DNA of 64,000 nucleotides from Pseudogymnoascus verrucosus (lineage: Eukaryota): NCBI GenBank assembly GCA_001662655.1, contig KV460214.1; one strand, given 5' to 3'. Shown here in pieces: positions 23,536 through 54,258 of this stretch. The translations under genes and the position numbers were made by a program. Below the pieces are notes generated by a model. It was not told the origin of the DNA. It worked only from the letters and a program-made list of their open reading frames with translations, and searched no databases. Numbering within the stretch: the stretch's first letter is position 1; each line of letters opens with the position of its first letter.

Positions 23536-24067
23536 GGAAGGCAGGACCACGTCAACATCCCAACGTTCCTTCCGCCGCAAGCCCTGACGGCTCAAAAGAT
23601 ATGCACGGAAGACAAACCGCGTCCCGCACCGTTCCTTCCGCAGCAGTTCCACTAGGGAAAACGGGGAGGCGGGGAGGGAAGCCACGACTCAACCCCACCT
23701 CCCAACGTTCCTTCCTTTTACTCCGACAGCGCGATTCAAACATCCAAAATGGAAAGTGCACCACCCTCGCTCCTTCCCCAACAGCTATCTCCAAATCACC
23801 ACGCTAAAAGTGGACAAAGGAAGGAAGGCACGACCCAACCTCACCCCTATCGTTCCTTCCGCAGCAACTCTGACAACGCGGGGAAAATAACGAGGCTGGG
23901 AGGGAAGCAACGACTCATCCTCGCCTCTTATCGTTCCTTCCTTTACTCTAACGAACTAGACACCTAGAATGGAAAGTGCGAGACGCATCGTTCCTTCCGC
24001 AGCAACCCATAGACGAAAGGTTGAGAATGGAAGGGGCGACTCGCTCTTATGTCTTAGCGTTCCTTGT
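23536..24067. repeat. Degenerate array of about 8 dyad units GGAAG-N3-CGA-N16/17-TCG-TTC-CTTCC, spacing about 58-80 bp
   Basis: Units start near 23536, 23607, 23677, 23751, 23823, 23903, 23971 and 24029. CGTTCCTTCC or a one- to two-base variant recurs in every unit. Confidence 0.8.
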
Positions 24068-24990
24068 GTAGCTGATATATTAACCTGGGGGAGATGATAT
24101 GAAAAAGCAGGGCGTAGAAGAGCTCATGACCGAATCTACGACATACCGCATCATACTCACTGTGAATGAAAGTTGAAGACTATTTTCCTTCACAAGTTGT
24201 TTTGTCCTTTCGTTTTTCTTTTCTTTTTCTTTTCTATCATTCTCCATGGGGATAAATGCAAAATAATGTTACCCACATCCACATTCATTCCATGCCCTTG
24301 CGGCTACTGATATCTCGTTAGAAAGAAGGCCGCATAGGTGAGACGATTGAATCGGTGAGAAGACTGGATCGATGAGAAGACTTAGTTGGCGAGAAGACTG
24401 CACCAGCAAGAAGACCACACGTTTGAGCAGACAACATAGATCCCCATCTCTTGTCAGGCGAGCCTTATTGTATGGTGCACCGTACGTGACACTGAAGTTA
24501 TCCATGTATTTGTCGCCAAGTAACCCTCCAAGATGTTTGAAGCCGGCCAATGCATTCGTTCCCATATAGTTTCAGGTTATCCATCGCCCCTAAGCCACCC
24601 CCATTCTTTCAGGTGGGAACAATGGTGAGTTGCAAACAATACCACGGTGTCAAAGCGGCTGAGACGGACTTTCTTGCTGGGGGACAATAGACTCTATCCT
24701 TTCTTTGACTTAGAGGATAAAGAAAACTTTTTCTTTTCCAGGCTCTGAACGGTCTACTGATCTGATACTTACTTTGCCTGGCAGTGCCTCGATTTGTATC
24801 AGAAACGATGTCCCGTTCATCAACTCTCTATATAACCCCTCCCCACCTCCTCCAATCTTCATTTTCATTCCAGACTCAAATCATCTCACACACATCACAG
24901 AATCCTACACACTTCCACCACTAACACTACAGCATCCACACATCCACATCACAAACACTACAGCAAATTCCTAATCCCACAACCTCCAAA

Positions 24991-25185
24991 ATGCGTCTAA
25001 CACACACCCCAGACAGCCTCCCCCTCAAATCCGACCATTGGTCCCACAAGCACCTCACCCCCTCCAAAGGCGGCGGACCCTTCGGGGTTAACGCATACTG
25101 TAAGAGTCGAGGGTGGCCACCCGTGTTTAAGGAGCGGCGGTGGCGAGGCCGGGCTAATTTTAAAGTTGCTATTGCGAGGGGATGA
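24991..25185 (+). CDS. Possible orphan micro-ORF (64 aa, basic)
   Basis: TATATAA near 24829, C/A-rich leader, caaaATG context and G/T-rich 3' region. No recognisable homology. Confidence 0.35.
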   Translation: MRLTHTPDSLPLKSDHWSHKHLTPSKGGGPFGVNAYCKSRGWPPVFKERRWRGRANFKVAIARG

Positions 25186-26398
25186 TGGGAGAGAGGGATG
25201 ATGATCTCGATGAGGAGTCTCAGGCGGATGAGGAGTTTGATTGGGACGAGTTTTATGCTAGTGAGCAGGAAGACAAGGAGTGAATGAGGTAAGTGAGAAG
25301 GTAAGATTTTATTTTTAAATAGAGGGGTTTGCTTTGGGAGTTAATAGATGGTGTTTCTTGAGTTTTGAAATTCTTGTGTTTTATGCCGCCTGGTGATCTG
25401 TTAAATCTCTAATAGCAGCTACGATCTCATCTATGGCAAATCATCAAATTGTGCACAGATCACAGATTCACTAAAGCATTCTGCTGGTGGTGGGGACCTG
25501 CTACAAGTCTCTTCGCTCCAGCCAGAGAGAAACGCGACTATTGCTCGAGTCACAGGCCTTGAGCGCGATGATCTCGGTTGGTCCAGCGCCCCTGAGTCCC
25601 ACTCCGATGCCAATACCCTGAGGCCTTGTTGTTTGTTGTTCTTGTTGTTGTCAAGTTTTGCTGCCGTGCACTCTTGCCGTCGTTGATTCTTGCTGTCGTT
25701 TGATTCTTGCCGTCGTCGACTGACTCTTGTCGGTGTGTCACTCGTATCCAAGTTCCGGCAACAAAATCCTCGTGCCGTCCTTCGCCTGCTTAATGAATCG
25801 TTTTCACCCTTTCCTTTGTCGTGATATTTCTGGAGGTGTATAGGGTGGGCGGTCTGGACCGGTGCTGCGAGACCCATATATAGTGCTTGTGTCTGACTTC
25901 CATTTTGTATCGGCTATCTAGAGGGGGTGTGAGGGGGATGGGGGCGATGATAAGCCTTCTGCGGCTTCAATACCGAAGGAATACATCCATAAACACTCAA
26001 CGCGTATATCATCCCCAGTAGCAACTATCGCAACTTCATCTCCGAACCTCTGATATTAGCTTATAGTACAATGACCTAATAGTATATACCCCCCCTCCCC
26101 TCTCCCTCTAACCTAGCCCTAAAGAACCCCTCTACCCCCCCTAAATGCACACACAAAAAAACGAAGCCCAATGTCATCCCTCACCCCCTCACCCCCTCAT
26201 CCCCTCGCTCCAAACCGCTCCTCCAATTTCAACGCCAGATATATTTACAGCGTACATATATAATGCAAAGTCCTCCCCCCCGACTTTGCGCTCTCAAGGA
26301 AAAAAGGTTAAGTCGTCCGTCCGGTAAAACTAACAACCCCCGCCCGGCGCGCCACCTATGCATGCATGCAATAACAAAAAACGCCTTTTTGAATCAGT

Positions 26399-29300
26399 TC
26401 AATGACTGAGCACTTCCGTCCGCTCGCTCTGCAGCAGCCCCTCCATCTCGCTCCCATTGTTGTCGCCCTCAGCATCGTTGTTGCCCGATTTATCATGCGT
26501 CCCGTTCACCGTATTACCATCGCCCATCTTACACACTGCGCCCTCAACCCCCTGCGCCATAGCCTGCTGCATCTCCTCTTCTCTCACTGCAGCCTCGTTC
26601 TCTCGCTCAAGTGCTTCTTGAGCGGCTCGCATCTCTGCTGCTGCTGGGTCTTCTTCTTCTATGTGGTCTGGTACCTGTGCGTCTGCTGGTGGAGGCGGTG
26701 GGGGTGGAGGTGGGCCGGGGGAAGCGTCGACTGCGGTACCATCTGCCTTAAAGCGCTTGGCGAAGGCATCATCGGTATCGGCGGGTGTGTGTTGGGCATC
26801 TTCGTTGCGCTTACGCTTCAGTGTGTCATCGCCTGAGCTCTCACCTACTGGGGTGGCTGGGACGGATTGCGTATGCAGCTCGTCATCTGACATGTCGACA
26901 TCGGACATCGCGGCCTTATCCTCCGCATCTGCGTCCATCGGGGTGCTGGTGTCCGCCGTAGCTGGGGTAGCAACGTCATTTGACACGACGCTGGCGGGAG
27001 TCTGGCCGTTCTTAAGAGCCTCAGCTGCCTTCTTCTCAGCCTTCTTCTTCTCATACGCGACCCTTTTGGCGACGGCTTTCTCGAAGTAGTCGCGCACGCT
27101 CTTCTTAACTTTCTTCTCGTGGTACTCAGTGATCTTGGTAGGGTCTTCGACGCGCTTGTGCTTGAAATCAGAGGCGGTGAGGATCTTCCCGATTTCCTTG
27201 GCGAAGCGCTTCAGTTCTTCTTTGGGAAGCTTTTTGCGGTACTTATCCATGACGTGTTTAATATGAGGAGCAAGCTGCGTACGTGTAAGTAGGGGGGTGA
27301 CTAACTGCCCGGGAGATGTGTACTTACAGTATTTTCATATATCTTCATCTGCTTCTCCTCAGGCAATGAGCGCCACTTCTCAGCCCTCTTCTTCTCTTTC
27401 AGCTCTGCCTCAGACATCTTTGGAGTAGCCACTGGCTTAGCCTGGTCGCCCTTCGTGACGGAATCAATAATATCCTGTAGTCGTTTTTGGTCTTGAATAG
27501 CTTTCGCAATATTCTTTTTCGGTGCTGGAGCATCGTTTGCAGGGAGAGTCGGCCGTTGCCACGTCGTTTGACCGCCGCGACTATAATAATATGTATTCCC
27601 TGCTGGATCAAGCGTCGCAAACCACCCCGTAGGTAATGGAGCTCTCCTCGGCACTGGTGGTCTTGGTTGGAACGGTCTTGCTGGACCTCGTGGTGTGGCG
27701 GTGGAGTTTCTGGGCCCAGTGGGAGCTGCTGCGGTTGGATTAGGTGTGTGGGAGGGCTCATCCTCGCGGTCACCTCCTCGACGAGCGTCAAATTGGTTTG
27801 CAGCTTGGGCTGTGGGATCGAATTTCTTCCGCGGAATGCGGTACGCAACCTCCAGCTTACTCCATACTTCCATCAATCGCAGCGATTCTGACGCAATATC
27901 TTCATGCTCCGACTTGGTCAGAGGCTCGACCACCTGCTCAATCTTTGAGTCGACAATCTTGTTCCTGGTGAGCCGGGGCAGCTGGTACAGGATGTCCAGG
28001 ACTTGGAGAATGATATTGTTATCCTCTTTCCAAGTCTCCAAGCATATCCGCATTATACGATAACCGTGAAATTGGACCACCTTTTGTCGGATTCGCTCGT
28101 CCCCGCACCGTTGTATGCGATTAAGCAACTTGACCGCAATCCACTTCTCCGTGCCCTGCATAAGTGTAGCCATGACCTTCGTAACGCCATTCTCATCAAG
28201 TCCCTTTGGTTGAACATTGTTAACATACTCCTCGTCATCTTCTCCCGACTTCTTCTTCCGAGGTTTCTTGGCAACCGCAACATCCCATCCATCACCATCA
28301 TCAATTCCAAGAGCCTCAATAGTAGTATGTGAGAGTTTCGTAGCCCGTTCAGTCTGAGTCTTGCCACCCAAAAATCCCGTGCAGTTTGGCTCTGCGCAAT
28401 AACATGGTTGCGGGTCTGCGCCGTACCGGTCAACGTTGTAGTTGAAAACGAGCTCCTCGCCAGCTTTGATGTTCCGCTCGGCAAATATGCCCATGCGGAG
28501 TTTATCGCCGACCACCCACTTATCGACGTAGCAATTGGGGTTACATGAGTGATTGCAGAACCGACCCAGATTTCCCTTTGTTGTCGCGTCGACGAACTCG
28601 GATTTGGTAAGGGACATGAAATAGAAATGCTTGATGCCTTCCTCATCGTACTGCCTCATCCGTCGTCGTAATGTCGGCTCGTTGACAACTTCCCCGATGT
28701 ACTCAAAGATGAAATCATGTGCGGAGAGATCTGTGTCAGCGCGTAACCCGTAACCCTTCTTCTCTGTCTTGATGACGGAAACTTTGGAGAACTCCTTTCG
28801 CTGAAAGCGCTGGTTCTGGCAGTTAGGACCACAGTTACACTCATCGTCCATGCATTCAATCTTTGTCAGGCGATTGATGCAGTCCGTATCTTCCCCACAT
28901 GCGTGATTCTTGCCATCGCCTGTACATGAGTTAGCAGAGAATTCAGGCCACGTAGTGAAGTCAGGGTCAACTTACGCCAGTCTTCAGAGCAATCACAGCC
29001 CAGGGCCTCGTGGTCCGCCGAACCCATATACTTCGACCCGTAGATGCAGTCCTGGATGACCTGAAATTTCGTTACGCATTCGGGGGTGGCATCTTCGAGA
29101 TGATCAAATAACGGCGGGGGCCTAAAGACGACCTTCTGGGAGGCCTTCCTCGACAATTTAGGTGCTTTCCCGGCCTCCTGAACCACTACGATATCCCCCT
29201 CGACCACCTCAGTATTGACCTCATCCTCAGATGTCGGCGTTTCCGATTTTGTCTCCATATCTTCAGGCGTAGGTGACCGCGATTGTTTCGGTGTTGGTGT

Positions 29301-29444
29301 TGCTGATGGTTGTGGGTTGTCGTCTGTATTTGACGGGGGTGTAGCAAGTTTTGCCTCCGTCGCGGAGTCCTCCTCAGCCAACTTCATATCGCCGAGCGCA
29401 GCATCGACCGCCTCGGTCTTGGGAGTGATTTCTTGATCCGACAT
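26399..29444 (-). CDS. SET2: Histone H3K36 methyltransferase; exons 29444-28976, 28919-27328, 27274-26399
   Basis: AWS (CINR...[11 protein letters not shown]), SET ([16 protein letters not shown]), post-SET ([10 protein letters not shown]), WW (LPTGW...YYY...TTWQRP) and SRI domains. Both introns are canonical. Confidence 0.96.
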
Positions 29445-32400
29445 GCTGAATTCGCGAGCAATTCACTGGTGCCTCTCCTTTATCTCCTGGTCGGACTCGG
29501 TGGGTGGCAGATTGAAGGCCAGTGCGGCGCGGCTCTACGGCCTTGGGCGACAGTGGCGCGCAGTTCTGGCGCATGCAGGTTCGGTAGCTTTGGAGTGCAA
29601 AGTATATAACAGTAGCCAACGAAGCTGCTGGGCCGATGGGTGGCTCGTGGCGTGGCAAGTGGTGGTGGAAGCTGAGGTGCACACCCTTATCGACTCGCGT
29701 TCTGCGCTGGATCAAAATTTGAACCAGGACGCAATCTGGCCAGGGTTCGTCTAGTGGTGGTATACCAAAGCGATCGTGATTGTCAAGTCATGTATACAAC
29801 TCTCCTCAGTTGCATATGTCGTGGAGTGTAGAAGGTAACAAGCACAGCTCGAATGGGGAAGTAGGGTTGCGGGTCAAATGTCGACTTTTGGAAGCCCGCT
29901 GCACAGATAGTTCCTCCCCCCGTATTATCAAGATCCAGTTACTGTCGCTGGGCGTCGTGATTACATGTCCCGTGTTCCCACAATATCACTGTGTTTTTTG
30001 TACAAGTCGAGATTTTCCCAGGAGTATTGAATTGCTATCTGCAAAGAAGAAGAGTAGAATATGGAAATGGAGGTTCTGAATGGGAACCTCAACTGGCACG
30101 TCTCGGCAAATGCCGCCATCACGCGCCGATGGCCAGATTCTGGCCGTGCCTGCCTGAGCAAAATCTTTCCCAACCGTGAACGCGCACAATTTCCACGAAG
30201 GCATTTGTATAATATGCCGATTTGGATCATATATATCACCTTTCCTCCTCCCAACCACCTTTCATGACTGCCACTCCTTTTCATAGGGCCAAAGGAGAAA
30301 CGGTTAAAGGAAAAAATCCCTTTATGTTTGTACTTACTATTAGTGATGCCAGGTGCTTTATCAGAGAGAACCCTGCCTCGTTGCACCACATCTTTGCGCC
30401 CAGGCATTCTTCGTAGGCCAACGTATTGGCATCTCCAACCATTCCCACTGACTGACTACTGGACCTGCAAGACCTAACAACTGGGCACGAACATAACATG
30501 TTTCCGTCGCTTTTGAGGGACTGCAAAGAGAGATTCCACACTGGAGGTTCCATGTCCACATCACTGGTGACTATAGATATTAGCAACATAAAGTTGGGGC
30601 ATGTTTTTAAGAACTATGACGGTTCAAGCTGTGATATGTGGGTTACACCCAGACTTGACTCCGCGGACAAGAGTATATTGGCATGCCTCCATGCGGTAGA
30701 GTGGGAATTGACAGCTATCGAATCCCAGGTATCCTTCTTGAGTGTGAATATTTCGGCGGGTATCCGCAGCTTGAGTGTTGTGTAAGGTATATAGAGTTGA
30801 TCGTCGCATTTTTGCCAGAGACTATATTCGAATTGGTGGTGACCGCTTCGATGCATCGCATCAACAAGTCTTGACTGCATATCCAGGTTCTCGTGTATCC
30901 CTTGGCCGCAGACACAACGTTGGCCTAAGAGCCGTAGATGTGGATATATGGACGGTGTAATAACCAGAAGATCCCCCCGGTATAGCCAGCGTTGCAAGTT
31001 GCATAGATTGTAGTGGCTCCGAACCGGTGCGTTCCGGCCTTGCCAACACACGATGCAGCACTGGCGTATACTGAAACTGGCGGTCGGGCATGGCCATCGG
31101 TCGCTATAAAACTGGGATGAGCTGCTGAAATCTCTGATCCTTCACAATCTTGATTCGAAAGCGAGTGCTCGAGCGAGTCGCGATCGGAACGATTCGAAAC
31201 ATGGCGGCCATTTCACTGGTCGTTGTCGCCTTCGATGTGGGGGGTGGCCATCGACTCGGCGACCCAAACGGCACAATTTAACTGCAGGCCGAGATGCAGG
31301 CCGAGTCATACGGCAACGGCGCTACGACTGCGCAATTGAAAGTGCGAAAAAGCGAAGCCCGTCGCATTTAGGGCCGGTCGAGCCGAGAAGCATCGAGGTT
31401 GATTGAGGCTCAGGGTGGATGCTCCAGAAGAGATCGATCGTTACCGGTTCGTCATGGGTATCGATGCAAAGCAGACTGCGACAATCACACAAATGTGACG
31501 AACTGGCGGGCTTTTTGGCGGGCTTTTTGGCTTGGCAAAGCTGTCAGTGGGTGTGTGGGTTCTGTGGAGGGGTGTGAGGGGTGTGTGAGAGGGTGTGAGA
31601 GGGACCGGTGACGGGTCTGACGGGGACTATCGACCCGTAAAGGGCTAATAAAAATGCTTCGGTGTGTCTGAGCTCTTTACTGGTCCCAGCGAAACGTTTT
31701 CTGGTCCAATGGTCATTTTGTTTCTTGAATCGTTTGACCATTTTCATCGATATAACTGGCTCTTGGGACCCTGCAAGGACAACGCAGACGCGCCACAGAC
31801 CCAATCAGCCAACGGCTGTTGAAGGAAGGCTGAGAGGGATGACCTTTCCTCATAGACGCAGGTGTCTCAGTTTTCTCATAATTCCCTTACTTTCGTTCAG
31901 ACTGAACGTTCTTGTTATTAAACTGGCGCCGAGTGAGTTGCTTCAATTAGCCAGAAAAGATGGTTGGATTTAGTTCGCTGGACTTTGCAGTGGAGTACAG
32001 CGACTGTATGCGCTCGTGTTGTGCATGCTGTACCTCCTGCATCGGAACTAGACGGCGTTCTCTTCCGTCTTCTGCAGCGTGCACGATGGATGTTCAGCAG
32101 AGCCTATAGTATTTGGTCTGTTCGCCGGAATAGGAACATCCCTCATGCACGCAATCAAAGTGGTGCATGCTTGTAGATACTATGAGTCCAGTCAAGTCCA
32201 GTCAAGCGCTGGACAAGATGCATCGTGGTCTACCCGCCGCAATGCTGCTTTTAGCAAAAATCTGAATCAGCCTTCAGCTAAGACGTTAGCTGCATCTCCT
32301 TTACTGTGCAGTAGGGACGTAGCAAGGCGTCGGATCGAGCCCATTGACAGGCGCGAAAGCCGCCCTTTTCTTCTTTTATTGGGCCAGCCAGACATGCGTC

Positions 32401-40146: not shown

Positions 40147-40272
40147 TTTTTGGGTTGGATAGCTTGCGACGCCGCCACGTACTGGTTCGCGGCCCGGGGA
40201 AAACGGCGCCGCAGAACGGGGTCTAGGCGTAATAAGGCGTTGAAAAGTAGAGCATAGATACCAAGCAAGATA

Positions 40273-41822: not shown

Positions 41823-44711
41823 ATGAGCTTTGGCTTCAGCGTGGGCGACATAATCGCCGTAGCCAGCCTTGCCAACAAAATCCGCCAACGATTATTTGAT
41901 AGTCCAGAGCAATTCAAGGCAATCGCTACTGAGTGAGTTACAGCAGTTGGCTGTTGGTTCCAGATCACTTACTATTCCACTAATAGGGTCCGAAGCCTCT
42001 CGATTGTCCTTCAAGATGCCGACATCGCCGTCTCTGAAAGAGAGCTCACCGGCCAGCAGAAAACCGAGCTAGATGGTATAGTGCAAGGATGTCATGATCT
42101 TCTAGAAGAACTAAAAATTGCACTTGATAGGTATCAGGAGTTGGATCCGGACGCCAAAGTCTCAAGCGGGAGGTCTCGAAAGGTGTGGAAAAGGCTCACT
42201 TGGGACCAGAAGGACATAGACGGGTTTCGGGGACGGATCTCGTCGAATATCATACTATTAAATACATTTCTAGGACTCATAAGCAGGTGAAGGGCTCCTC
42301 CTCATTTGGAATGAATACCCAAGCTAAATCAGAGCAGCCAAGCAATATTCGCGGTTAAAGATGGCATTGACCGATTAAATCTGGGACAGCAAGAGCAAGA
42401 ACAGAAAGAAGAACGCCAAATTATCATCGACTGGGTTAGCACAATTAACTATGCTTCTCAACATAGTGACTTTGTTACCAGACGCCAGGAAGGAACCGGA
42501 CAATGGTTGTTGGATTCGAACGAATTTCAGCACTGGCTCAACCATGGCCAGCAGATACTATTTTGTCCAGGTATGCCAGGAGCGGGGAAGACCATGGTCG
42601 CGTCTATTGTTATCGACCATCTATACGCCAAATACCAAACAGATTCCAGCGTTGGCATTGCCTACCTGTATTGCAACTTCCGGCGCCAAGATGAGCAGAA
42701 GCCCGTTGATCTACTAGCGAGTCTGCTAAAGCGGTTGCTTGAGGGACGGCCCAATTTGCCTATTAGCATGAAGGATCTTTATGAGCAGCATAAGAGCAAA
42801 CAAACTCGGCCCTCGTTTGGGGAAATCTTGACAGAACTACGATCCATCATTGCTAGTTTTTCCACGACTTTCATTGTTATTGATGCACTGGACGAATGTC
42901 AAGTTTCCGATGGAGGTCTGACAAAGTTTCTATCAGAGATACTCCGCCTTCAAACTAATACTGGAGCAAATCTATTTGTAACATCAAGATTCATTCCGCA
43001 TATAGTAGAAGAATTTCAAGGGGCTCCATCATTAGAGATCCGTGCCAGTGATGGGGATGTCAAGAGATACCTTGATGGACAGTCATCACGCCTTCCATCG
43101 TTCGTCCGTCGTAATCTCGACATGCAGGAGAAAATTAATGCTGAAATAGTCAAGGCAGTAGACGGGATGTACGAGCTTTCTCATCTTGCCATGGTAGAAA
43201 AGCGAGCTAACATTGTCAGGTTTCTTCTCGCGCAACTTCACCTCGAGTCATTAATCGGAAAGAGGTCGCCTAAAGCCATCAGATCAGCTTTAGAAAAGCT
43301 TCCGACAGGATCCGAAGCGTATGATTATGCGTATAAGGAGGCAATGGAGAGAATTGAGGGTCAGATTGCCGACTCTCAAGACCTTGCTAAACAAGCTCTC
43401 GGCTGGATCACTTGCTCTAAGAGACCTTTGACAACCTTGGAGCTTCAGCATGCACTTGCAGTCGAGATAGGCCAGTCTAGCCTTGATGAGGAGAATCTTC
43501 CTGACATCGAAGATGTCGTTTCAGTATGTGCTGGCTTGGTGACTATTGATGAAGAGAGTGAGATAATCCGATTAGTCCATTATACCACACAAGAATACTT
43601 TGACCGGAACTGGACTTCTTGGTTCCCTAACGCGGAGAAAGATATTGCGAAAACTTGCGTTACCTATCAACTATTCAGTACTTTTAGAGGCGGTTCCTGC
43701 GCCCATAATGAATTGGAGGAACGCTTGCGGTTAAATCCACTTTACGACTATGCAGCCCGAAATTGGGCCTATTACGCTTCCTCAGAATCGACAGAAGTAG
43801 AAGAGTTAATTCTAGATTTTCTTCAGAATGACGCAGCTGTGTGCGCCTCTGATCAGGCGGCGGTAGTTCCTTGGGACGACTACCCTGACTATGATATATG
43901 GTTGCCAAGGGGTATGAGAGGAACACATCTTGCGGCATATTTCGGACTGGAGAAAGTGATGAGAAACTTATTGAGGAAAGGGCACCACCCGGATTCTAAA
44001 GACAGTTTCGATTACACACCACTGTTGTGGGCTGCATCGAAGGGGCACGATGAGGTGGTGAAGCTGCTGCTCGCCACACCCGGCGTCAACGCGGACTCCC
44101 ATACCAATATATACCAGACGCCGTTAAGTGTAGCTGCATATTGCGGCCACGAGTCAGTGGTGAAGTTGCTGCTCGCCGAGGCTGGCGTCAACGTGAACTC
44201 TATGCAGTACGGATCAAATACGCCGCTGTGCCTTGCTGCAGAGCGCGGGAACGAGGAGGTAGTGAAGCTGTTGCTTGCCACGACTGGCATCGACGTGAAT
44301 TCTAGGGACCGAGGCGGTGTGACGCCGCTATTCCTAGCCGCAGGGAACGGACACGAGGAAGTTGTGAAGCTGTTGCTCGCCATGCCTGGCGTTTACGTGG
44401 ACTCTAATGACTCCTATGGTGAGACGCCGCTGTGGATGGCCGCACAGAACGGACACGAGGAGGTTGTGAAGCTATTGCTCGCCACGCCCGGCGTTGACGT
44501 AGACTATAAGAACTCCCATGGCAAGACGCCGCTGTGGATGGCCGCATCGCGCGGGCACGTGGAGGTGGTGAAACTGCTGCTCGCCACTCCTGGTGTTAAT
44601 GTAGACTCTGAGGATATTGATGGTAGATCGCCGCTGTCGATGGCCGCATTGTGCGGGCGGGACGTGCAGTTGGTGAAGCTTCTGAAATCGGGCGGGGCCA
44701 TGACAGACTAG
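41823..44711 (+). CDS. Fungal NLR-like STAND protein: HeLo-like N-terminal domain, NACHT NTPase, ankyrin repeats; exons 41823-41932, 41987-42286, 42338-43168, 43220-44711
   Basis: MSFGFSVGDII N-terminus, GTGQWLL, Walker A GMPGAGKT, Walker B IVIDALDE, winged-helix VCAGLV...RLVHYT, then ankyrin repeats. All three introns are canonical. Confidence 0.92.
44011..44690 (+). repeat. About seven highly similar 102-bp (34-aa) ankyrin repeats
   Basis: TPLxxAAxxGHEEVVKLLLATPGVxVDS is repeated, and the DNA GTGGTGAAGCTGCTGCTCGCCAC recurs with small variations. Confidence 0.92.
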
Positions 44712-45257: not shown

Positions 45258-47171
45258 TCAGATATCCCCCAGATATTCCACATCTTCCCCACCCCCGAAA
45301 GCACTCGCCTTATTCTTCTTCTTGCTCTTATTTTTCGATTTCCCGGCATTGCTGCCCCCGCCAAATCTATCATTCTCTTTCCCATCCGGTCCACGCGTAG
45401 CGTGAATAGCAGCCTTCTTCTGCCTCGTCGCTTCCGCAAGCTCGGCCTCCACGCGCGCCTCTTCGGCGTTTTGCTCTGCCTCGATCTCCTCTCGCTCGGC
45501 GTTGATGACAGCAACATCTTCGTACTCCAAGCCGGTATGGGACTTGTATTCGTCGAAGTTGATAGGCACCTTCTCTCCTAGCAGCGCGCTATTAATCTTG
45601 CTCGGGTAAAGCCTTTCCTCCTTGTTGAATTTGAGTTTGATCTGTCGCCTATTTCGATCCGGAAACATCTTGGAAATCATCTCGAAATCGGTTCCGAACA
45701 TGCGCAGGCCAACGTAGAACTTTTCTTCGGCCTCGAGGTCCCAGAATATGTTCTTCTCGCGTTTCATGAACGTGCCAGACGTGGTGATCCGCGTGAACTC
45801 GTTTTCTTCGATGATTTCCATGACTCCAGCATTTGCTGCAGCTAGTTTGTGACGATCGAGGTTCAAGGAGCTTTCGTCGATAACAATCTGCCCATCCACC
45901 AATCTCATGCGAGGGCCTACGCTTGTGGTTTGAAGGGGTGTCTCGGTCGCCGATCGCGTTGTTGCCGAGGGCCTTTCATCGTCAGAGGCTCCAACAAGCT
46001 CGGGATTCTCTCTCCGCAGTTTCGCCTTCGCTTTCCTGTCTATATCCCTCTGCTTTATTTCATCGTGTTTGCTAAACTTCTTGCCGATCTTGAGATCCTT
46101 GCAGAGATCTGCCATCTTGATTGTCGAGTGGTCAATTTCCTGGTCTTCTGCGTCTTCGGGGGTCTCCGCGCGCTTTTTCCGCGCTCTGGGTTTCGGGGTG
46201 CTAGAAGTGGCAGCCCTGGGTTCCCTGGGCTTCCTAGGTTTCCTAGGCGCGCTTGTGCGCGGTGCCTTGGTTGCATGGACTTGAACTTCAATGCTAGGCC
46301 GAATATCAATATTGGCATCATCTAATTTCCGCTTCCTAGCCCTCGGCTTTGCTTTAGGAGGTAGCACGGGAATTGGGACGCCGGAAGTTCCATCTGGATT
46401 CAGAGGCACCACTGGGATAAGTTGGGATGGGTGGCCTGCTTCACCTGCACCCAAGGCGGATAAGTCCATGGACTCGTCATGTGCACTAATTGCAGCAGTA
46501 TCATTCCTCTCGACATGTTCGCGATCAATATGTTGTTGGGTTGGTTGTGAAACAGGCGGGGGTATTATAGCAGTGTCTTGAGGTGTGCTTATTACTGCAA
46601 GCCTTTCTGTCTCCCTTTCAAGGAGTCCCTCCTCGCTCGGAGCAGTAACAGGAGTCGGTTCAGCGGTCGCTGTCGACGGTATAGAAGGCGGGCGTGTCGT
46701 GGGTTTTGAGATTGGCACCGTTTCCTGGGTTTGTGGGGGGGTTGGGACATGGCTCAGTCTTCGTCGTGTACTTGAAGGTATAGGTACTGCAGATTCTTGT
46801 CCCAATGGAGTCGCAGTTATTGGCGGTTGCACTACTTCTTTTGTAGGAGGAGGTATGACTGCAAAGTCTTTCTTGGCTGAAGTAGCTGGTGCCGCTAAAT
46901 CTTTTGGGGGCGGAGGTATGACTGCAGAATCTTGTCGCGCCACTGGTTTTTCCACAGAGGGCGCTGGTTGAACTTCGGGTGCAGCTGGTGATTCCACCTC
47001 TACCGATGGGATGGGAACATTATGAGCAACTGGAGGCGCTGGTGCGTGCGCTTGCTTTTCGACAGGTGGGATCGATGGTGAGGCTGATGGTGGGGCAGTA
47101 ACGCCAGGTCTTCGCGCCGGAGCGCGTGGCTTGAAGCTCGCGGCTCCTTTCTTCTTCAAAAGGGAACTCAT
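45258..47171 (-). CDS. BDP1: TFIIIB B'' subunit
   Basis: GPRMRLVDGQIVIDESSL and the SANT/Myb-like WDLEAEEKFYVGLRMFGTDFEMISKMFPDRNRRQIKLKFNKEER. Confidence 0.92.
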   Translation of the reverse strand: MSSLLKKKGAASFKPRAPARRPGVTAPPSASPSIPPVEKQAHAPAPPVAHNVPIPSVEVESPAAPEVQPAPSVEKPVARQDSAVIPPPPKDLAAPATSAKKDFAVIPPPTKEVVQPPITATPLGQESAVPIPSSTRRRLSHVPTPPQTQETVPISKPTTRPPSIPSTATAEPTPVTAPSEEGLLERETERLAVISTPQDTAIIPPPVSQPTQQHIDREHVERNDTAAISAHDESMDLSALGAGEAGHPSQLIPVVPLNPDGTSGVPIPVLPPKAKPRARKRKLDDANIDIRPSIEVQVHATKAPRTSAPRKPRKPREPRAATSSTPKPRARKKRAETPEDAEDQEIDHSTIKMADLCKDLKIGKKFSKHDEIKQRDIDRKAKAKLRRENPELVGASDDERPSATTRSATETPLQTTSVGPRMRLVDGQIVIDESSLNLDRHKLAAANAGVMEIIEENEFTRITTSGTFMKREKNIFWDLEAEEKFYVGLRMFGTDFEMISKMFPDRNRRQIKLKFNKEERLYPSKINSALLGEKVPINFDEYKSHTGLEYEDVAVINAEREEIEAEQNAEEARVEAELAEATRQKKAAIHATRGPDGKENDRFGGGSNAGKSKNKSKKKNKASAFGGGEDVEYLGDI

Positions 47172-47606
47172 GGCTCAGACGTTCCCATGTGAAAGGCCGG
47201 ATAGGTTGTTGGCCACAGTGGTGAGAATTCCTTCAGAGGCGCAGTTGTCGTTGGATGTTCGCTGCGAGTCAAGAAAGTGCATTTTAGTTTACAAGGCTAT
47301 CTATCCTCGTTATCGAGTCTAGGCGTCTGAAAAGTGGGACTAAGCGACAGATTTGGCGCTAGTGCACTTTTGGTCTCTACAACGCTAGGATCCGACCTTC
47401 GATCTTTGAACATCCTGCTCCCCCTTCAACACCACATCGCCACCACTTCTCGCGACAACCTACAACAAACTTCTCCCTCCTGACGACAATGAGCTAGATC
47501 TTGCTCTTGAACACTGTTTATCGCGACGCGCGATTCTTGTGCTGCCTTGCTTCTGATGAAGGTGGCCGCTGCAACCGTCGGCCCCCTTCCTGCAACCATC
47601 ATCAAG

Positions 47607-50142
47607 ATGGAGGACAGGAAGAGAGCAGCTGGCCAAAGCGTCGACGACCTTGCTCCGCCTACAAAGCGACAAGCCATGAATGGCGGCAGCAAGGTATCTG
47701 TCGACGCCGACATGCCATGGAAGGATGATCTGGAGGTGAGTTCGTCAATATTTCCTCTGCACACGATCCCTCTGTTACCTTGGTCCCCCACACGTGCCAA
47801 GTGTCACTGTGCGATAGAGGTCGCAAGACTAGATGATACACACATGTCGATGGCCTAGTCTAATGTCCCAGTTGTCACAAACTGTTGCCGACCTCACATA
47901 ACGATCCTCGTTCCATATCCCAGACCATACGACCATACCATTTCATACTACCTTCGTTCTATACACAGTTGGGTGCACATATGGGTTGCGTAGGACTTGT
48001 CTAACATGGATTACAGAGGTATCAGAAAGATGCAATTTTACGGCAGATGACCGAATACAAACGCGAAAAGGCACTACTCGAGTCGGAATTAAAGGATGTT
48101 CGCAAGCGCTCTGTTGATCACGATGACCACCTACGGGTTGTTGACGCTTGGTGGAGCCAACTGCTGGATGAAGTCACGCTTTTGACGAAGAACTCCGCGC
48201 CAAGCACTTTTAATGTAGATGGTACGTTGTTTGCGCCGGAATTCCAGGAAGATTATACTGACGCGTTTCCAGCGCCATTTCCTACCGCTACGAACTTTGA
48301 GAATAGCGTGGTGTTTTCGGATCACTTGGCCTCGAAGGCAAAGCAAATCAAAGAGATGGTTGCCAATATAATGGCTAACCTTGATACGTCCCCGGAAAAG
48401 CGAACCGACGAAGTCCAGGATCTACAGCAAAAGCTAAACAAGCTACTCGCTTCGCATAAGGACGAAATGGTCAAGTATGATCGGATGCGCGTGGAAAATG
48501 AGCAGGCGAAAGAACGACTGGAAAGCGCCTCACTCCGCGCCCTTAAGCTGGAAAGGAAACTGGAACGCTCCAAGAGCTCGACTGTCGCAAAGTTGGAGCA
48601 GCAAGCGATTGCAGGAACTGGCAACAGTGCTGGTAGCGGAATTGGCAGCGTCGAGAACGGATTCGATACTCGCGCCGAGGTTGCCAACGGCTCAAAAGAT
48701 AATGAGGCGAAGGTTGAAGCATCCGAAGTGGCTTTGAAGGAGGCCGTTGCTGTTTCTGATAAGCAAAAGCAACAGCTGGAGGAATTGTTTACCGAGAATA
48801 AATCGATAACAGAGCAGCTTACTGCCGCAAACGCCAGACTGGCCAATCTCACGGAGGACGACTACGCCCGGACCGAGCTGTTCAAGAACTTCAAAAGTCA
48901 GCATGAGGAAGTCATTAAGCGCATCAATCACCTGGAGGCTACCAATATCCAGTTGAGGGAAGAGGCAGAAAAGCTTCAAGCGGAACGAACGGCGTACAGG
49001 ACGCAACTTCAGAACGAAGCGGAAACGGTTAAGGAAGAACTCGAGAGCCAGCTGCAGCGCTTGGATTCCGATTTAGCCCGAGTACGATCTACCAGAGACG
49101 AGCTGTTGGCCGATCAGACGATGAGGAGAGCGAACCAGGACCAGGAGCGAACTGCTATTGGCCAGATGAAAGAACTCGTCAGTGCGAAAGAAGATCGCGT
49201 AACGACCTTAGAATCTGAAGTGCAAAGGCTGAGATCCGTGGTAGATGGTTCTTGCGAGGCCACTCCTAAGCCGGAAATCGAAGGCCTGGATCTCGCCGAG
49301 CTTCAACGGAAGTATGTTACCCTGGAACAGAGCTTTGCATCGGTCAACAATGAATTGCCAGCTATGGAGAAAGCATACAAGCGTGCAGTTGCGACAGCCT
49401 CGAAGAAGGTCATGGACTTTGCCGCCCTGGAAGAAAAGGTTTCCATTCTTATTGCCGAAAAATCGAAAGCCGACCAAAAGTATTTCGCAGCTCGCAAGGA
49501 TATGGACACCAGGATAGGCGAAGTCAGGGCCCTTAGAGCACAGAACTCGAAGAGCTCGGAAATTATCACGCAGCTGAAGGAAGTCGAATCTTCGAACAGA
49601 ACTATTGTCACCGGGCTAGAAAAACAACTGAGCGATGCCCGACAACTGTACAATTCCACTGTGTCAGATCATAAGAAGCTCCAGTTGACCAGCTCAGAGT
49701 CAGCTTCCAAGCTGGAGGGTTTGAGGGCACAGGTAGCAGAACTTACGAACATGTTGAGGTCCAAAGACACCGCTCTATCCACCACCAAGCAACGGGCTCA
49801 GTCTGTCGAGACAGAGCTCGAACAAGTCCGTTCTCGATTCGAACAATCCGAAAAAGAGAAGGAGACTTGGAAGGCAAAGAGCTTAAGCAATCAATCAGGC
49901 GAAGAAGAAATGTTGAGAGTAAGTTTATCAGTCACCGATTTATTGGACTTTGCTAACAGATCCTCCAGATGCTCGCATTATGTACTATTTGTCGCAATAA
50001 TTTCAAGAATACGGTCTTGAAGACGTGCGGCCATGTGTTCTGCAACCACTGTGTCGAAAACCGCCTGGCGAACCGGATGAGGAAATGCCCCAACTGCTCC
50101 AAGGCATTCGATAAGATGGACGTCATGACGGTTCACATGTGA
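47607..50142 (+). CDS. BRE1: H2B E3 ubiquitin ligase; exons 47607(or 47556)-47735, 48017-48221, 48273-49918, 49969-50142
   Basis: MEDRKR start, [10 protein letters not shown], long coiled coil, [14 protein letters not shown] and C-terminal RING CTIC...CGHVFC..C...RKCPNC. Confidence 0.95.
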
Positions 50143-50560
50143 TTGCACAGTTCACCCTACTGGCAGACGCCAAATTTCCATTTGATCTTTTGTATGTCCG
50201 TGGCAGAATCCGAGGGACCAGTCTTCTGAGGAAGGGCTTGTATGGTGGTCGGGGGTGCAGGCTTGTATGATGTGTTTCGGACGTTTCTGGGTGTTGTCAA
50301 TGGGCTTCCTGCAGCTGTTGTCAATTCGCCGCATAATTGTACATTAGTTTTTCCTCGGCACGATGGATAATGCGTGGCTTCCTATGCCGCCTGCGTAGGA
50401 TAGCCTCGCTGCTACGATGAGAGTAGCTTCCCTAAAGGTTGGGTATCAGACTGCTCGTCATAGAAGTAGATATACAATTAATACAGCTTCATTGCTGATA
50501 TCTTTTTAACTCTTGAGGTGAAATGTCTGCTCACTGTCTATATATATACTGATACACCAT

Positions 50561-51529
50561 CTATCTCCGGGTCGTCGATCCAAAGCCCGTACTCTCATGA
50601 CGAGCACCAGAACTAGACGAACCTCCAGAACTCGACCGACTAGGTCCCCCATAATTATAACCATTACCACCACCCCCCATCCACCCTCCACCCCCTCGAG
50701 GCTCCTGCTGCCTATCCCCTCCAAACCACCCCCTAGCCCCTCTGTTCTCTTGCTGCCTATTCCCTCTACTCCCAGCCATATACCCCGCCGCCGCTCCCCC
50801 CGCAGCACCGGTCCAGAACCCAGGCCTCCACCCCTCTTGTCCCGACGACGACTTCCCCGTTCCTGGGTAAGGTGGCGGGGGATCGGTCGGATAGTCTCCT
50901 CCCCCTCCTCCTCCTCCACCACCGCCGCCCCAGAACCCATCGCGTCTAGGCTCCCTCCTCGGTGCCGCCGGCTCCGTACCCCAATTCTTCCAAATCGAAT
51001 ACACAATCCACGCCGCGACGCCCAAGAAGATAGCCCAGAACACAACCTGCGCGGCTCCACTCACATCGCCATCCTGGCCAGAAAATACATTATGTCCCCC
51101 CCCCCCATAAACCTCCTCCCCCCTCTTCGTCAGCAACAACCGATACTCAACCCCACAACTCCCCTTCAACACCCTCGGATCCTCCGGCCCATCGTAACCC
51201 TCACATATGACATCCGTGCTCCCCAGCTTAAACTCCTCCGGCAAATCAGCCGTGCACGTCCACTGGATATTCTCATCGTCGTAATCGCTGCCCGCGTTCT
51301 TGCAGCGCATCACATCGACCTGGTGGTGTCTGCAGCCGTTTCCGCCCATGCATTTTAGCTGGGGGATGGCGGGGACGCGGCGGTGCGCGGTGGAGGCGGT
51401 GGAGCGGAGAGTGAGCGATTTGACTTGGCTGAGGAGGACGCTGGTGCCGGATTTGCGGGCTGCGGTGGCGGGGGGGGTGAGAGTGAGGAGGGCGAGCAGG
51501 AGGGGGGTGAGGTGGGGGAGGATGTGCAT
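50561..51529 (-). CDS. SARAF/TMEM66-family (DUF1183) membrane protein
   Basis: Signal peptide, RRVPAIPQLKC, VICEGYDGPEDPRVLKGSCGVEYRL, one TM helix, PPPPY, GFWTG and STGFGSTTRR terminus. Confidence 0.9.
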   Translation of the reverse strand: MHILPHLTPLLLALLTLTPPATAARKSGTSVLLSQVKSLTLRSTASTAHRRVPAIPQLKCMGGNGCRHHQVDVMRCKNAGSDYDDENIQWTCTADLPEEFKLGSTDVICEGYDGPEDPRVLKGSCGVEYRLLLTKRGEEVYGGGGHNVFSGQDGDVSGAAQVVFWAIFLGVAAWIVYSIWKNWGTEPAAPRREPRRDGFWGGGGGGGGGGGDYPTDPPPPYPGTGKSSSGQEGWRPGFWTGAAGGAAAGYMAGSRGNRQQENRGARGWFGGDRQQEPRGGGGWMGGGGNGYNYGGPSRSSSGGSSSSGARHESTGFGSTTRR

Positions 51530-52015
51530 TTTGGGGGGGTGAATGTGAGAGTGTGTGTAGTGGGAAGTTCAGCCTGCGACGGAGTTTTTGAGAAATAGTC
51601 ACGCAGACGAACTCCAATATTCGGAGTTTGAAGTTCGTTCGTGATTACTGATGTTGATATAGAGGAGATATGAGAGTTCAAAGGAGAGGACAGATTTCAG
51701 ATACTTGGTTGGATGGGCGGTTGTTGGCCTACGTACTCTACGTACTTTTGTTTGCCTCTTTGCCTCTCTCGGTGACGAGTATTGGTCGAATGAAGTGGCG
51801 TGGTTTCTGATTGGTCGAAGCTAGTAAGGCTACCTACCTCAGCCTCTTCGGTTCAGAACAGCTCAGAGCTCGCAGCCTTGCGATCTTCAACCAACCTCAC
51901 TCGGGACAGCAAGGTGTCGGAAATTCCAACAATTACTGGAGCGAGTTTTTCCCAGTCGCGAGGTACGAACAACGAAATCGGGAGCGACGGTGCGATATAA
52001 AGCGAATTATACAGG

Positions 52016-53655
52016 ATGCGGCAGAGAATCACTTTCGTTCACGAGCCGCAGGATGGGATTGATCCAAAGTCAATCGGCATCCACACCAATACCTTGTCGG
52101 TCTCAGGCCTCAAAGCTGCAAGGGAAGATCATATAACTCTCTCTCTCGATGAGCTTCCGCAGGAGTTGCGAGTAGCGCTTAGCCAAACGAAAGAGCTGCA
52201 TATTCGATATGTAACGGCGGCGTCATACGAGTCGATACCCCCCTTCAATTCGAAACTGTCGCCGGGATTGCATGTTTATTATACCCCCAAGACCGAGGTT
52301 GGGAAGGAGGGCCAGGAGTATGTTGTCGGAAGGGATTCTATACCATATCCACGTAGCTGATAGTCTGCAAGATTTAGTGATTTATTATGTGGCCTCATAG
52401 ACACACTCTTCGACTTAAAAGACAAATCGCTCTGCCAGACCCCCGAAGTAGCCAAACCCCCCCCCCCTCCCCTTCCCCCTCCCCATCCACTCCCCGAAAT
52501 CCAATTGCTAAGAATCCGTTCCAGATATCATTCACCTCCCTCCCATCCAAAAGCCCCAAACACAAAAGCAGCTATGAATTCTACCTCCGCTCCTCCGCCC
52601 TCGGCGGCACATCCGCCCTACAATCCTACTTCAAGCGCATCTGCTCCAGCACAAGCTGCCTCACCCGCATCTCCGAAGGCGCCACAGCCGCCTCCATCGA
52701 CCTCGACTACATCTCCACCACCGGCCTCGCGAGCCTCACCACCTCCTGGTCTCCCCGAACCTGGCCGTCCTTCGCGATATCAAAGATATCCCACACCGAC
52801 CGCGTCGAGCTCGGAATCCTCTCGAACGAAAAGCCCATAAGGCTGGATGATCTGAATATGTCTGGATTCCTCACCGTGTTGGGGGAATCGGAGAAGCCCG
52901 CGCCGACAATGTTTCAGTTCCCCAGCCGTCACCATAGGCATCCTGCGAAATTCAGCTCTTCGTTCATTGAACCGACGGGCCTGCATCCTACTTTACAACT
53001 CACCATTAGGGACAGCCAGCCACCGAAAAACAGGGAGGGGTGTAGCTTGAACGCACATTTAATGCTCCCGAGGAGTGTGTTCCCGGATAAATACCAGTTC
53101 CGCGATGCCCTCTTCATGGCGTCGAAGAATCTGACTGCACTACGCCATGTTACGGTCCCGGTCGATTTGGAGGCGCCCGAATACACGATGGCGCTATGGG
53201 GTTCCTCGCTCCTCGTCGAGCTTGCCCCTCCACCTCCTAGCGAGGAGTCTTGGACTGCGGAAATCCCCTTGCATCTCCGCTACCTCCTACCGAGCGAGTC
53301 GGGGTATAGTTCCACCTCTCTCCCCTCCCCCGTGCTCTTCTGGGCGTGTGAAGCGGACGAGGAGAGTAAATTGGAAGGGAGCCCGTTTGATAGGGTTAAC
53401 CTGGGGTATGATGGATTGTTTGGGGATAAAACGCTGTTTTATCACCTTGGGAGGGAGAGGGGGGAGGAGGGGTATAAGGAGGTTAGTGTGCCGGTGCTGA
53501 GTACCAGGTTTAATGGGGAGATGGAGGTGGGGACCGCGCTGGTGGTGGCGTTGGGGTTTGGGTGGGTGTTGTGGAAGTTGTGGGGGGTGGGGAGGGGGGT
53601 TGGGTATGGGAGTGGGAGGGGTGGAGGGGGGAAGGTGGAGGGGAAGGAGGAGTGA
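52016..53655 (+). CDS. PBN1: GPI-mannosyltransferase I subunit PIG-X/Pbn1; approximate exons 52016-52317, 52372/52378-52447, 52525-53655
   Basis: MRQRITFVH start, PTGLHPTL, LPRSVFPDKYQ, DLEAPEY, WGS, IPLHLRYL and a C-terminal TM helix. Middle exon boundaries are less certain. Confidence 0.88.
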
Positions 53656-53786
53656 GGATAATTTTTAATTGGGTTGTAGAATGTAGTATATATGTTGTTA
53701 TACTGTGATGCATCGTGGTCTTGTTTTATAGTGAATTGTCCACCCAATAATCACTCTTGAGACTCTGTTTTCAAGATTGGATATCT

Positions 53787-54258
53787 AATCGTAGAATCCT
53801 CCGAGCTTTTGAGTCCTACATATGGAAAGAACGATTTCTAAGCAAACTCAGTCGCAGCCTCCTCAGAGCGTTCAAGTCTGATATATGGCAAGAACGATTT
53901 CAAAGCAAGCTCAATCGCAGTTTCCTCAGAACCGTCGATCCCGACATGCGGAAGGAACGATTTCTAAGCAGACTGAGTTGCAGCTTCCTCGCAGTTTTCA
54001 AGTCCGATATATGGCAAGAACGATTACCAAGCAAGTTGAGTCGCAGCTTCCTCAGAGGTTTGCGGCGATATATATATGGATATATATATGGAAGGAACGA
54101 TTACTAAGCAAACCCTCAGTCGTAACTGCCTTGAGAGGCTCACAGTGTCATATATGGAAGGAACGATTTCAAAGCAAGCTCAATCGCAGCTTCCTTGGGG
54201 ACTTCGAGCACCTATATATGGCAAGAACGACAAGCAAGGTCCCAGTCGCAGCTTCCTC
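53787..54258. repeat. Seven-copy tandem array, about 63-bp period, each unit containing the dyad GG(A/C)A(G/A)-GAA-CGA-N17-TCG-CAG-CTTCC
   Basis: GAACGA at 53829, 53892, 53955, 54018, 54095, 54161 and 54225. Confidence 0.9.

What the first reader, a model, noticed from the sequence alone, without database searches (positions are those of the whole stretch)
23536..54258. The same 39-bp dyad GGAAG-N3-CGA-N17-TCG-N3-CTTCC builds two distant intergenic arrays
Seen: 23903-23941 reads GGAAG caa CGA ctcatcctcgcctctta TCG ttc CTTCC, and 54156-54194 reads GGAAG gaa CGA tttcaaagcaagctcaa TCG cag CTTCC. Both have a 17-bp core. The arrays are 30 kb apart and in opposite orientation, since the reverse complement of the 23.5-kb units reads GGAAGGAACG...GAGTCG...CTTCC. 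Each has 7-8 units and begins 130-230 bp downstream of a gene stop. Arms and spacing are conserved while cores and linkers drift. Inference: arrays of binding sites for a dimeric protein, repeated RNA hairpins, or remnants of an unrecognised dispersed repeat family.
Basis: partly seen in the sequence, partly recalled or inferred. Interest (0 to 1): 0.75.

Follow-up and report, generated by a model that had tools for sequence, protein, structure and literature searches.

The report
Eleven-letter motif arrays behind fungal genes
In a cold-soil fungus one 11-letter DNA word is repeated in short clusters with many unrelated spacers, mostly just behind the ends of genes, which suggests landing pads for a still unknown DNA-binding protein.

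Summary
The two arrays are real, but the conserved unit is the 11-mer GGAAGGAACGA, not a fixed 39-bp dyad. This Pseudogymnoascus-like genome has 295 exact copies against 45 for the reversed control, extrapolated to roughly 190 loci. They sit in short arrays with unrelated spacers (periods 23, 29, 34, 35, 38, 50, 63 bp, or irregular), direct or inverted. The 54-kb array belongs to a dispersed 63-bp family (at least 36 loci). The 23.5-kb array is single-copy. A third array (34 bp) lies at 12071-12293. Arrays favour gene 3' sides: 27 of 35 63-bp arrays lie within 450 bp of a stop, none near a start. There is no strand preference and no covariation, so RNA hairpins are unlikely. Between strains, substitutions avoid the arms. 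Some arrays were copied with 30-180 bp of flank. No matching transposon was found; Helitron2/HINE ends resemble them but fail the terminus test. Best reading: selected clusters of sites for an unidentified host DNA-binding protein, probably a barrier at gene ends. Binding and function are inferred, not shown.

The parts
21743..23308 (+). Last long reading frame of an amino-acid permease gene; its stop lies 228 bp before array 1
   Evidence: Pfam AA_permease_2, E 5.9e-103; distance
23536..24067 (-). Array 1: single-copy irregular array. Seven strong GGAAGGAACGA-type sites on the minus strand (lowest coordinates 23563, 23629, 23705, 23767, 23850, 23931, 23988) plus a degenerate eighth near 24057; five have a weaker inverted GGAAG-N3-CGA partner 16-17 bp away; built by ~140 and ~220-bp duplications
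   Evidence: single copy in the genome; wholly or partly present in 4 of 4 other runs laid
23823..23860 (.). Complete dyad, 16-bp spacer
23903..23941 (.).
52381..53655 (+). Last long reading frame of PBN1/PIG-X; its stop lies 169 bp before the first full unit of array 2
   Evidence: Pfam PIG-X, E 2.7e-62; best relatives are Pseudogymnoascus proteins, top hit 88% identical
53787..54258 (+). Array 2: one partial and seven full units of the dispersed 63-bp family (TA-rich leader, strong site, 15-19-bp spacer, weak inverted site, variable linker)
   Evidence: 36 loci genome-wide; unit profile
54156..54194 (+).
12071..12293 (+).

Best explanation
The arrays are clusters of binding sites for one sequence-specific host DNA-binding protein (unidentified). 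It reads GGAA(G/A)GA(A/G)CGA on double-stranded DNA in either orientation and tolerates changes in the middle three bases.

Shown: the word is multiplied by local tandem duplication inside many unrelated spacers. It is kept while spacers change, both among paralogous units and between strains. Two array types (63-bp and 23-bp) were also copied between loci, carrying variable lengths of neighbouring DNA. Arrays lie mostly at gene 3' sides and between convergent genes.

Inferred: the protein itself; selection acting through binding; copying by ectopic template switching or extrachromosomal circles. The most likely job is a chromatin barrier or roadblock behind genes that limits read-through transcription and/or slows replication forks, as yeast general regulatory factors and fission-yeast Sap1 do. 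About 0.3 overall for that specific job; replication-origin, cohesin or pairing roles are less likely.
For: (1) Enrichment: 295 exact copies against 45 for the reversed word. The 96 hits on contigs C1-C6 fall in 49 loci, about 9 expected by chance. Four of 7 apparent single sites lie in degenerate arrays with further periods of about 29, 35, 38 and 50 bp.
(2) Only the 11-mer is shared across unrelated arrays: information falls to 0.43 bits or less outside it over 187 sites in 21 arrays (sites were chosen by likeness to the word).
(3) In 126 units of the 63-bp family, 13 of the 16 GGAAG/CGA arm columns are 91-100% conserved; the 17 linker columns are 34-88%, 12 of them at 67% or less. Units within an array are as diverged (74.5%) as units between arrays (72.4%), so this is not recent homogenisation.
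(4) Constraint in place at the single-copy array 1: run X4 lists 0 substitutions in 32 arm-core bases against 16 in 81 other bases, p 0.005. Orthologous 63-bp arrays L039/L077 differ at 5 of 57 arm bases and 28 of 132 others, p 0.04.
(5) Position: 13 of 16, then 14 of 19 held-out 63-bp arrays lie within 450 bp of a stop, and 0 of 35 near a start (null 25% and 31%). Convergent 13, tandem 14, divergent 0, unclassified 8 of 35; for the 23-bp set 12, 3, 0, 9 of 24.
(6) No strand preference relative to the gene (10 against 11), as expected of a DNA site; Reb1-type roadblocks likewise show no preferred orientation (PMC5052057, passages).
Against: No binding protein was identified and no binding, chromatin or RNA data exist here. 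The 3' bias could simply reflect loss of insertions from promoters. The X4 substitution table was cut (106 rows hidden), so completeness up to 23947 is assumed. X4 and X5 have replaced the first part of array 1 (23477-23771) with other letters. L039/L077 arms are not significantly more conserved than flanks (5 of 57 against 93 of 532, p 0.13). Neighbouring genes share no function. Only about 2% of genes would have an array, so it cannot be a general terminator. Gene positions come from my own hexamer model; 85 of 113 neighbour frames had a Pfam hit.
Confidence: 0.55

Rival explanations
1. The word is the subterminal repeat of a Helitron2/Helentron-type rolling-circle element. The arrays are non-autonomous derivatives with multiplied ends, have no host function, and survive behind genes only because insertions there do no harm.
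For: HINE/DINE-1 elements have 11-15-bp subterminal repeats with a partial inverted partner 1-22 bp away and carry tandem repeats (PMC4067079, PMC7492417, passages). Fungal Helitron2 elements have a 12-bp inverted repeat 38-51 bp before an ATTTT end and sometimes repeat their first 31-85 bases (PMC5148889, passages). Ten of 24 23-bp-type arrays end in an inverted site plus a shared ~30-bp cap containing a T-run. Arrays are copied with flank and show no target duplication. L064 and the composite L153 share both ends.
Against: There are no common termini: four unrelated upstream and four unrelated downstream flank groups, and similarity running 17-180 bp past the T-run. No Helitron Rep domain and only one PIF1 match in an assembly that holds 92 pogo-type, 37 hAT and 19 DUF3435 matches (the Rep search had no positive control). 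Array 1 is single-copy, and several other arrays share no flank or spacer with any fetched locus. Arms are conserved in place between strains.
Confidence: 0.2
2. A host protein binds the word, but the arrays are a by-product: binding stalls forks or causes breaks, which drive tandem duplication and ectopic copying, as with minisatellites that share a core. There is no benefit to the host.
For: Many independent expansions around one word. Variable copy breakpoints. The 63-bp family is clumped by contig (4 loci on C38, 5 on C9; p 0.0007 and 0.002 uncorrected). Unit number differs between orthologues, 5 against 3.
Against: Units within arrays are about 25% diverged and look static. Arms are conserved in place between strains, which a harmful site would not be.
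Confidence: 0.12
3. Neutral slippage-prone purine tracts (GGAA-like) that expand by themselves.
For: The word starts with GGAA-GGAA, and extra GGAA units occur beside some sites.
Against: Six control words of like composition give 0, 0, 2, 0, 0, 0 clusters against 9 in 464 kb. The CGA end is as conserved as the GGAA part. Inverted weak partners are conserved too.
Confidence: 0.07
4. Repeated RNA hairpins or RNA-protein sites in 3' UTRs.
For: The arms are complementary, and 67 of 90 isolated units close the outer stem in a minimum-energy fold. On the strand opposite the strong word, the common changes at arm positions 5 and 8 give G-U pairs. Arrays lie close to stops.
Against: No covariation: 216-472 of 500 shuffles reach the observed values. 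Position 3 breaks the pair in 20 of 90 units. Whole-array z-scores are 0.54 and -0.40. No Rfam match. No strand preference. Direct-repeat arrays lack a partner.
Confidence: 0.06

Closest known systems
C. elegans pairing-centre motif clusters (ZIM/HIM-8)
   Same: Clusters of an 11-12-bp motif with two sub-sites that recruit one protein (PMC11605055, abstract and passages). That these motifs sit in repeats of varied period and orientation is recalled, not read.
   Different: Those clusters lie in one pairing centre per chromosome and bind known zinc-finger proteins. These are scattered over many contigs behind genes, with a different sequence and no known binder.
Yeast general regulatory factor roadblocks (Reb1, Rap1, Abf1) and S. 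pombe Sap1
   Same: DNA-bound factors that stop RNA polymerase II and DNA polymerase delta without preferred orientation (PMC5052057, passages). Sap1 binds both direct and inverted sites, and only direct ones block forks (PMC6053445, passages).
   Different: The motif differs from the Reb1 consensus in that paper and from the Sap1 pentamer (recalled). Those factors use one or a few sites, not minisatellite arrays. The Sap1 paper reports no sequence homologue for molecular replacement.
Helitron2/Helentron derivatives (HINE, DINE-1, Cg_HINE, FoHeli)
   Same: 11-15-bp subterminal repeat with a nearby partial inverted copy, internal tandem repeats, T-rich ends, repeated 5' termini (PMC4067079, PMC7492417, PMC5148889, passages).
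   Different: No shared termini and no autonomous partner in this assembly. The word sits in every repeat unit and in single-locus arrays.
Dispersed euchromatic satellites (Drosophila Rsp-like/1.688; Tribolium Cast)
   Same: Short arrays spread among genes by microhomology repair or extrachromosomal circles (PMC7403614, PMC11610590, abstracts).
   Different: Here unrelated repeat families share one conserved word, units are much shorter, and there is a 3'-end bias.
Bacterial REP/BIME elements; human minisatellites with a shared core (both recalled, no call)
   Same: Short motifs in direct and inverted clusters behind or between convergent genes (REP); unrelated tandem repeats sharing a core word.
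   Different: REPs are palindromic hairpins tied to RAYT transposases. Neither feature was found here.

Membership tests
Helitron2/HINE non-autonomous element | 11-15-bp subterminal repeat with a partial inverted partner 1-22 bp away | tested here: met
   Strong word plus weak inverted partner at 15-20 bp in 89 of 90 63-bp units
Helitron2/HINE non-autonomous element | Defined termini shared by the copies | tested here: not met
   Unrelated flank groups with variable breakpoints; the 23-bp cap is in 10 of 24 arrays and similarity runs past the T-run
Helitron2/HINE non-autonomous element | 3' stem-loop after the 3' subterminal repeat | tested here: inconclusive
   Only a short CCTAGG-type palindrome in some caps, by eye
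Helitron2/HINE non-autonomous element | Autonomous Rep/helicase partner with the same ends | tested here: inconclusive
   PF14214 gave 0 matches with no positive control; PF05970 gave 1 match with no array within about 1.5 kb; the assembly lacks even 5.8S rRNA
Helitron2/HINE non-autonomous element | Insertion into TT, shown by empty sites | not testable with these tools
   No empty orthologous site was available; both orthologous comparisons held the array
MITE or subterminal repeats of a DDE transposon | Terminal inverted repeats and target-site duplication | tested here: not met
   The flank BLAST of 36 63-bp arrays showed no upstream/downstream inverted match within a locus; no duplication seen by eye
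MITE or subterminal repeats of a DDE transposon | Word clustered at the ends of a coding element | tested here: not met
   0 arrays in 21 transposase loci scanned (15 of 92 DDE_1, 2 of 2 MULE, 4 of 37 hAT); some stretches may not reach both ends. No transposase domain among 113 array neighbours
Structured RNA family | Covariation of paired columns | tested here: not met
   1 two-sided change in 320 cells, 222 of 500 shuffles as high
Structured RNA family | Match to a curated family | tested here: not met
   Rfam 0 at gathering score; 3 weak hits outside the arrays; no tRNA
General-regulatory-factor roadblock or barrier | Orientation-independent DNA site downstream of genes | tested here: met
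General-regulatory-factor roadblock or barrier | Bound protein; RNA 3' ends or paused forks piled up before the site | not testable with these tools
   No RNA holder listed; no chromatin data
Pol I terminator array (Reb1/TTF-I type) | Same word repeated behind the rDNA | not testable with these tools
   rDNA not found in the assembly
Pairing-centre-like motif clusters | Confinement to one region per chromosome; meiosis-specific binder | tested here: inconclusive
   Arrays lie on many contigs; the 63-bp family is clumped on some; 151 contigs, no chromosome map

The most novel reading that the evidence does not exclude
A lineage-specific chromosome-organising system in a filamentous fungus. One host protein, possibly domesticated from a rolling-circle transposase, binds some 200 or more self-propagating site arrays that act as barriers, replication origins or pairing sites between genes, and new array families keep arising and spreading around the same word.
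Probability: 0.2. Interest if true: 0.85.

Novelty: new variant of a known kind. Interest (0 to 1): 0.6.

Why it matters
From my own knowledge, sequence-defined insulators, fork barriers, replication origins and pairing sites are largely unknown in filamentous ascomycetes. A single 11-bp word, amplified in many independent arrays and kept between strains, gives a ready bait for pull-down and a set of natural loci for deletion. It also shows how short dispersed satellites can arise repeatedly around one protein site in a genome that has RIP-like mutation of longer repeats. If it proves to be a Helitron2 relic, it is still an unannotated repeat family that standard terminus-based tools would miss.

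Tried and rejected
Sense-strand (co-oriented) placement: 11 of 16 in the first set, but it did not replicate in 19 held-out arrays (co-only 3, anti-only 9). Rejected, and with it RNA-level and polar-terminator models.

Crypton/Gcr1 link (CTTCC box, recalled): GCR1_C gave 0 matches, control silent. rDNA terminator test: 5.8S not found. RIP-immunity of the word as the cause of conservation: units keep CpA, with TpA/ApT 0.73 and (CA+TG)/(AC+GT) 1.18 (thresholds recalled). A hAT remnant 500 bp from one array has its own ends and repeats and is unrelated. Shared flanks were found only beside arrays, but that search missed known matches.

Metagenome scan: 29 loci, only L039 holds an array. Viral scan: 4 loci, tandem repeats with unrelated spacers. 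No RNA holder listed; this says nothing on expression. The bacterial promoter/terminator scan is not applicable. Four look-ups in earlier findings returned nothing.

Literature searches in which I saw no description of these arrays (search listings only): Pseudogymnoascus + minisatellite; the literal word, 20 of 104 listed; Pseudogymnoascus + tandem repeats + intergenic; + Helitron; + comparative genome. The word was also absent from 8 supplements of PMC5148889. Subscription journals are largely not covered. PMC9113092 (passages) was irrelevant.
Full report
Setting. The window is contig C9:558001-622000 of a 30.2-Mb fungal assembly in 151 contigs. The gene before array 2 is PBN1/PIG-X, and its best relatives are Pseudogymnoascus proteins, top hit 88% identical. 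Array 1 follows an amino-acid permease gene.

The observation. Both quoted 39-mers are present, and the gapped pattern occurs 3 times against 0 in 100 shuffles. Array 2 (53824-54258) has seven units of a 63-bp repeat. Array 1 (23536-24067) is irregular, with seven strong sites on the minus strand plus a degenerate eighth, and only five inverted partners. The arrays share the arms only. Array 1 finds no second copy in the genome, while array 2 finds 46 matches at 36 loci, a lower bound. A third array in the window, 12071-12293, repeats the same word head-to-tail every 34 bp with no partner.

What is conserved. The exact word GGAAGGAACGA occurs 295 times against 45 for the reversed control (the first 100 places were listed). 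The 96 hits on contigs C1-C6 fall in 49 loci, about 9 expected by chance, which extrapolates to about 190 loci. Five of nine clusters in a 464-kb census had no exact copy, so the total may be higher; that census was centred on known arrays and overstates density. Six control words gave 0, 0, 2, 0, 0, 0 clusters there. Fetched clusters have periods of 23, 24, 33-36, 45, 50, 63 and about 140 bp. Four of 7 apparent single sites were degenerate arrays of about 29, 35, 38 and 50 bp; 3 were lone or nearly so. Inverted pairs have spacers from -4 to 42 bp. A 23-bp tandem pattern has 61 matches at 22 loci against 0, and a 63-bp-specific pattern has 61 against 0. Over 187 sites in 21 non-63 arrays, information drops to 0.43 bits or less outside the 11 bases; those sites were picked by likeness to the word, so only the sharp edge is informative. 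In 126 aligned 63-bp units, 13 of the 16 GGAAG/CGA columns are 91-100% conserved (positions 3, 5 and 9 are 83, 54 and 86%). The first 11 core bases are 75-98% and the linker 34-88%. Units are 74.5% alike within arrays and 72.4% between arrays.

DNA or RNA. Arm pairs show no covariation: one two-sided change in 320 cells, with 222 of 500 shuffles as high (40 units with a 17-bp spacer chosen by me). Array 2 folds no better than shuffles on either strand. Rfam and ARAGORN find nothing over the arrays. In favour of a hairpin, 67 of 90 isolated units close the outer stem, and two common changes are G-U compatible on one strand.

Position. I called genes with a hexamer model trained on 62 long frames; 85 of 113 neighbour frames have a Pfam hit and none is a transposase. 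At the middle threshold, 13 of 16 first-set and 14 of 19 held-out 63-bp arrays lie within 450 bp of a stop, and none near a start; the null is 25% and 31%. At the strictest threshold the held-out figure falls to 9 of 19 (null 20%). One of the 36 loci, at a contig end, was not examined. For 16 held-out 23-bp-type arrays the figures are 10 near a stop and 3 near a start. By flanking genes, the 63-bp arrays are 13 convergent, 14 tandem, 0 divergent and 8 unclassified; the 23-bp set is 12, 3, 0 and 9; the null is 11.5, 37.1, 21.9 and 29.5%. A sense-strand bias in the first set vanished in the held-out set (pooled 10 against 11).

Other strains. Array 1 is wholly or partly covered in 4 of 4 runs laid. 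X11 spans it, with 93 other letters in 1166. X4 and X5 have replaced 23477-23771. X4's listed substitutions in 23823-23947 fall 0 of 32 in arm cores, 2 of 12 in the middle triplets and 16 of 81 elsewhere (p 0.005); the table hid 106 rows, so this assumes X4's list is whole up to that point. A metagenome contig (L039) holds the orthologue of a 63-bp array next to a gene 98% identical in protein, with five units against three. Arms differ at 5 of 57 bases, the rest of the unit at 28 of 132 (p 0.04) and the flanks at 93 of 532 (p 0.13).

How arrays spread. Subsets of 63-bp arrays share 30-180 bp of flank, in four unrelated upstream and four unrelated downstream groups, with mixed combinations and variable breakpoints. 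Ten of 24 23-bp-type arrays share an end cap. I saw no terminal inverted repeats or target duplications. The assembly holds 92 DDE_1, 37 hAT, 2 MULE and 19 DUF3435 matches, many with in-frame TAG/TAA stops as RIP would give. None of 21 transposase loci scanned carries an array. No Helitron Rep domain and a single PIF1 were found. The 63-bp family is clumped on some contigs (computed with 38 rather than 36 loci, uncorrected), which suggests local hopping.

Mechanism. The simplest account of one word embedded in a dozen unrelated repeats, in both orientations, conserved in place and indifferent to strand is a host DNA-binding protein whose site is favoured in clusters. Shown: enrichment, diversity of spacers, arm conservation, 3' bias, copying with flanks. 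Inferred: the protein, selection through binding, and the job. Position behind genes and between convergent genes fits a barrier or roadblock like Reb1, Rap1 and Abf1 sites (PMC5052057, passages) or Sap1, which binds direct and inverted sites (PMC6053445, passages). The same position would also follow from loss of insertions in promoters. The main rival is a Helitron2/HINE origin. The word plus partial partner, the T-rich cap and repeated ends resemble features in PMC4067079, PMC7492417 and PMC5148889 (passages; one supplement search), but shared termini were tested and not found. The two readings can combine: a transposon-derived site later kept by the host. Other analogues are C. elegans pairing-centre motifs (PMC11605055, abstract and passages) and dispersed euchromatic satellites (PMC7403614, PMC11610590, abstracts). 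REP/BIME elements, minisatellite cores, and the Sap1 and Gcr1 motifs are recalled, not read.

Verdict. A real, genome-wide and apparently undescribed feature (searches; open-access literature only, and supplements of genome papers were not seen). New variant of a known kind, namely homotypic site clusters or dispersed satellites with a shared core; interest 0.6.

Noticed in passing
window 54440-55400: A second, unrelated array right after array 2: at least five copies about 180 bp apart of a block with CATGTGATTGTGCAC-like and TCGTGAC-like words; single locus in the genome.
   Followed up: partly
window 24065-24500: All four other runs stop matching at 24047-24065 and continue with other sequence, so this stretch may be an insertion or replacement in this strain; it includes a 17-bp tandem repeat at 24337-24400.
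   Followed up: no
window 42315-44711: NACHT/NPHP3_N plus ankyrin-repeat frame (fungal NLR-like) with a 102-bp coding repeat.
   Followed up: no
L153 2352-3760 (G000:C82): Two 23-bp arrays about 630 bp apart; the left end of the first and the right cap of the second both match the single array in L064, as if unique DNA had been captured inside one unit.
   Followed up: partly
L154 about 3415-4495 (G000:C83): A short AT-rich hAT remnant with terminal inverted repeats, an 8-bp target duplication and its own GAGTACT-type subterminal repeats, about 300 bp from an array.
   Followed up: partly
L066 3984-4010 (G000:C3): A long perfect palindrome made of two exact copies of the word 4 bp apart, alone in a probably divergent intergenic region.
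   Followed up: no
L068 3309-3340 (G000:C5): A GGAC/GACC tetranucleotide run about 250 bp from a 23-bp array, like the GTCY microsatellite of DINE-1/HINE elements.
   Followed up: no
G000 whole assembly: Many pogo-type, hAT and DUF3435 (Starship captain family, label recalled) matches with in-frame TAG/TAA stops, consistent with RIP; no 5.8S rRNA match.
   Followed up: no
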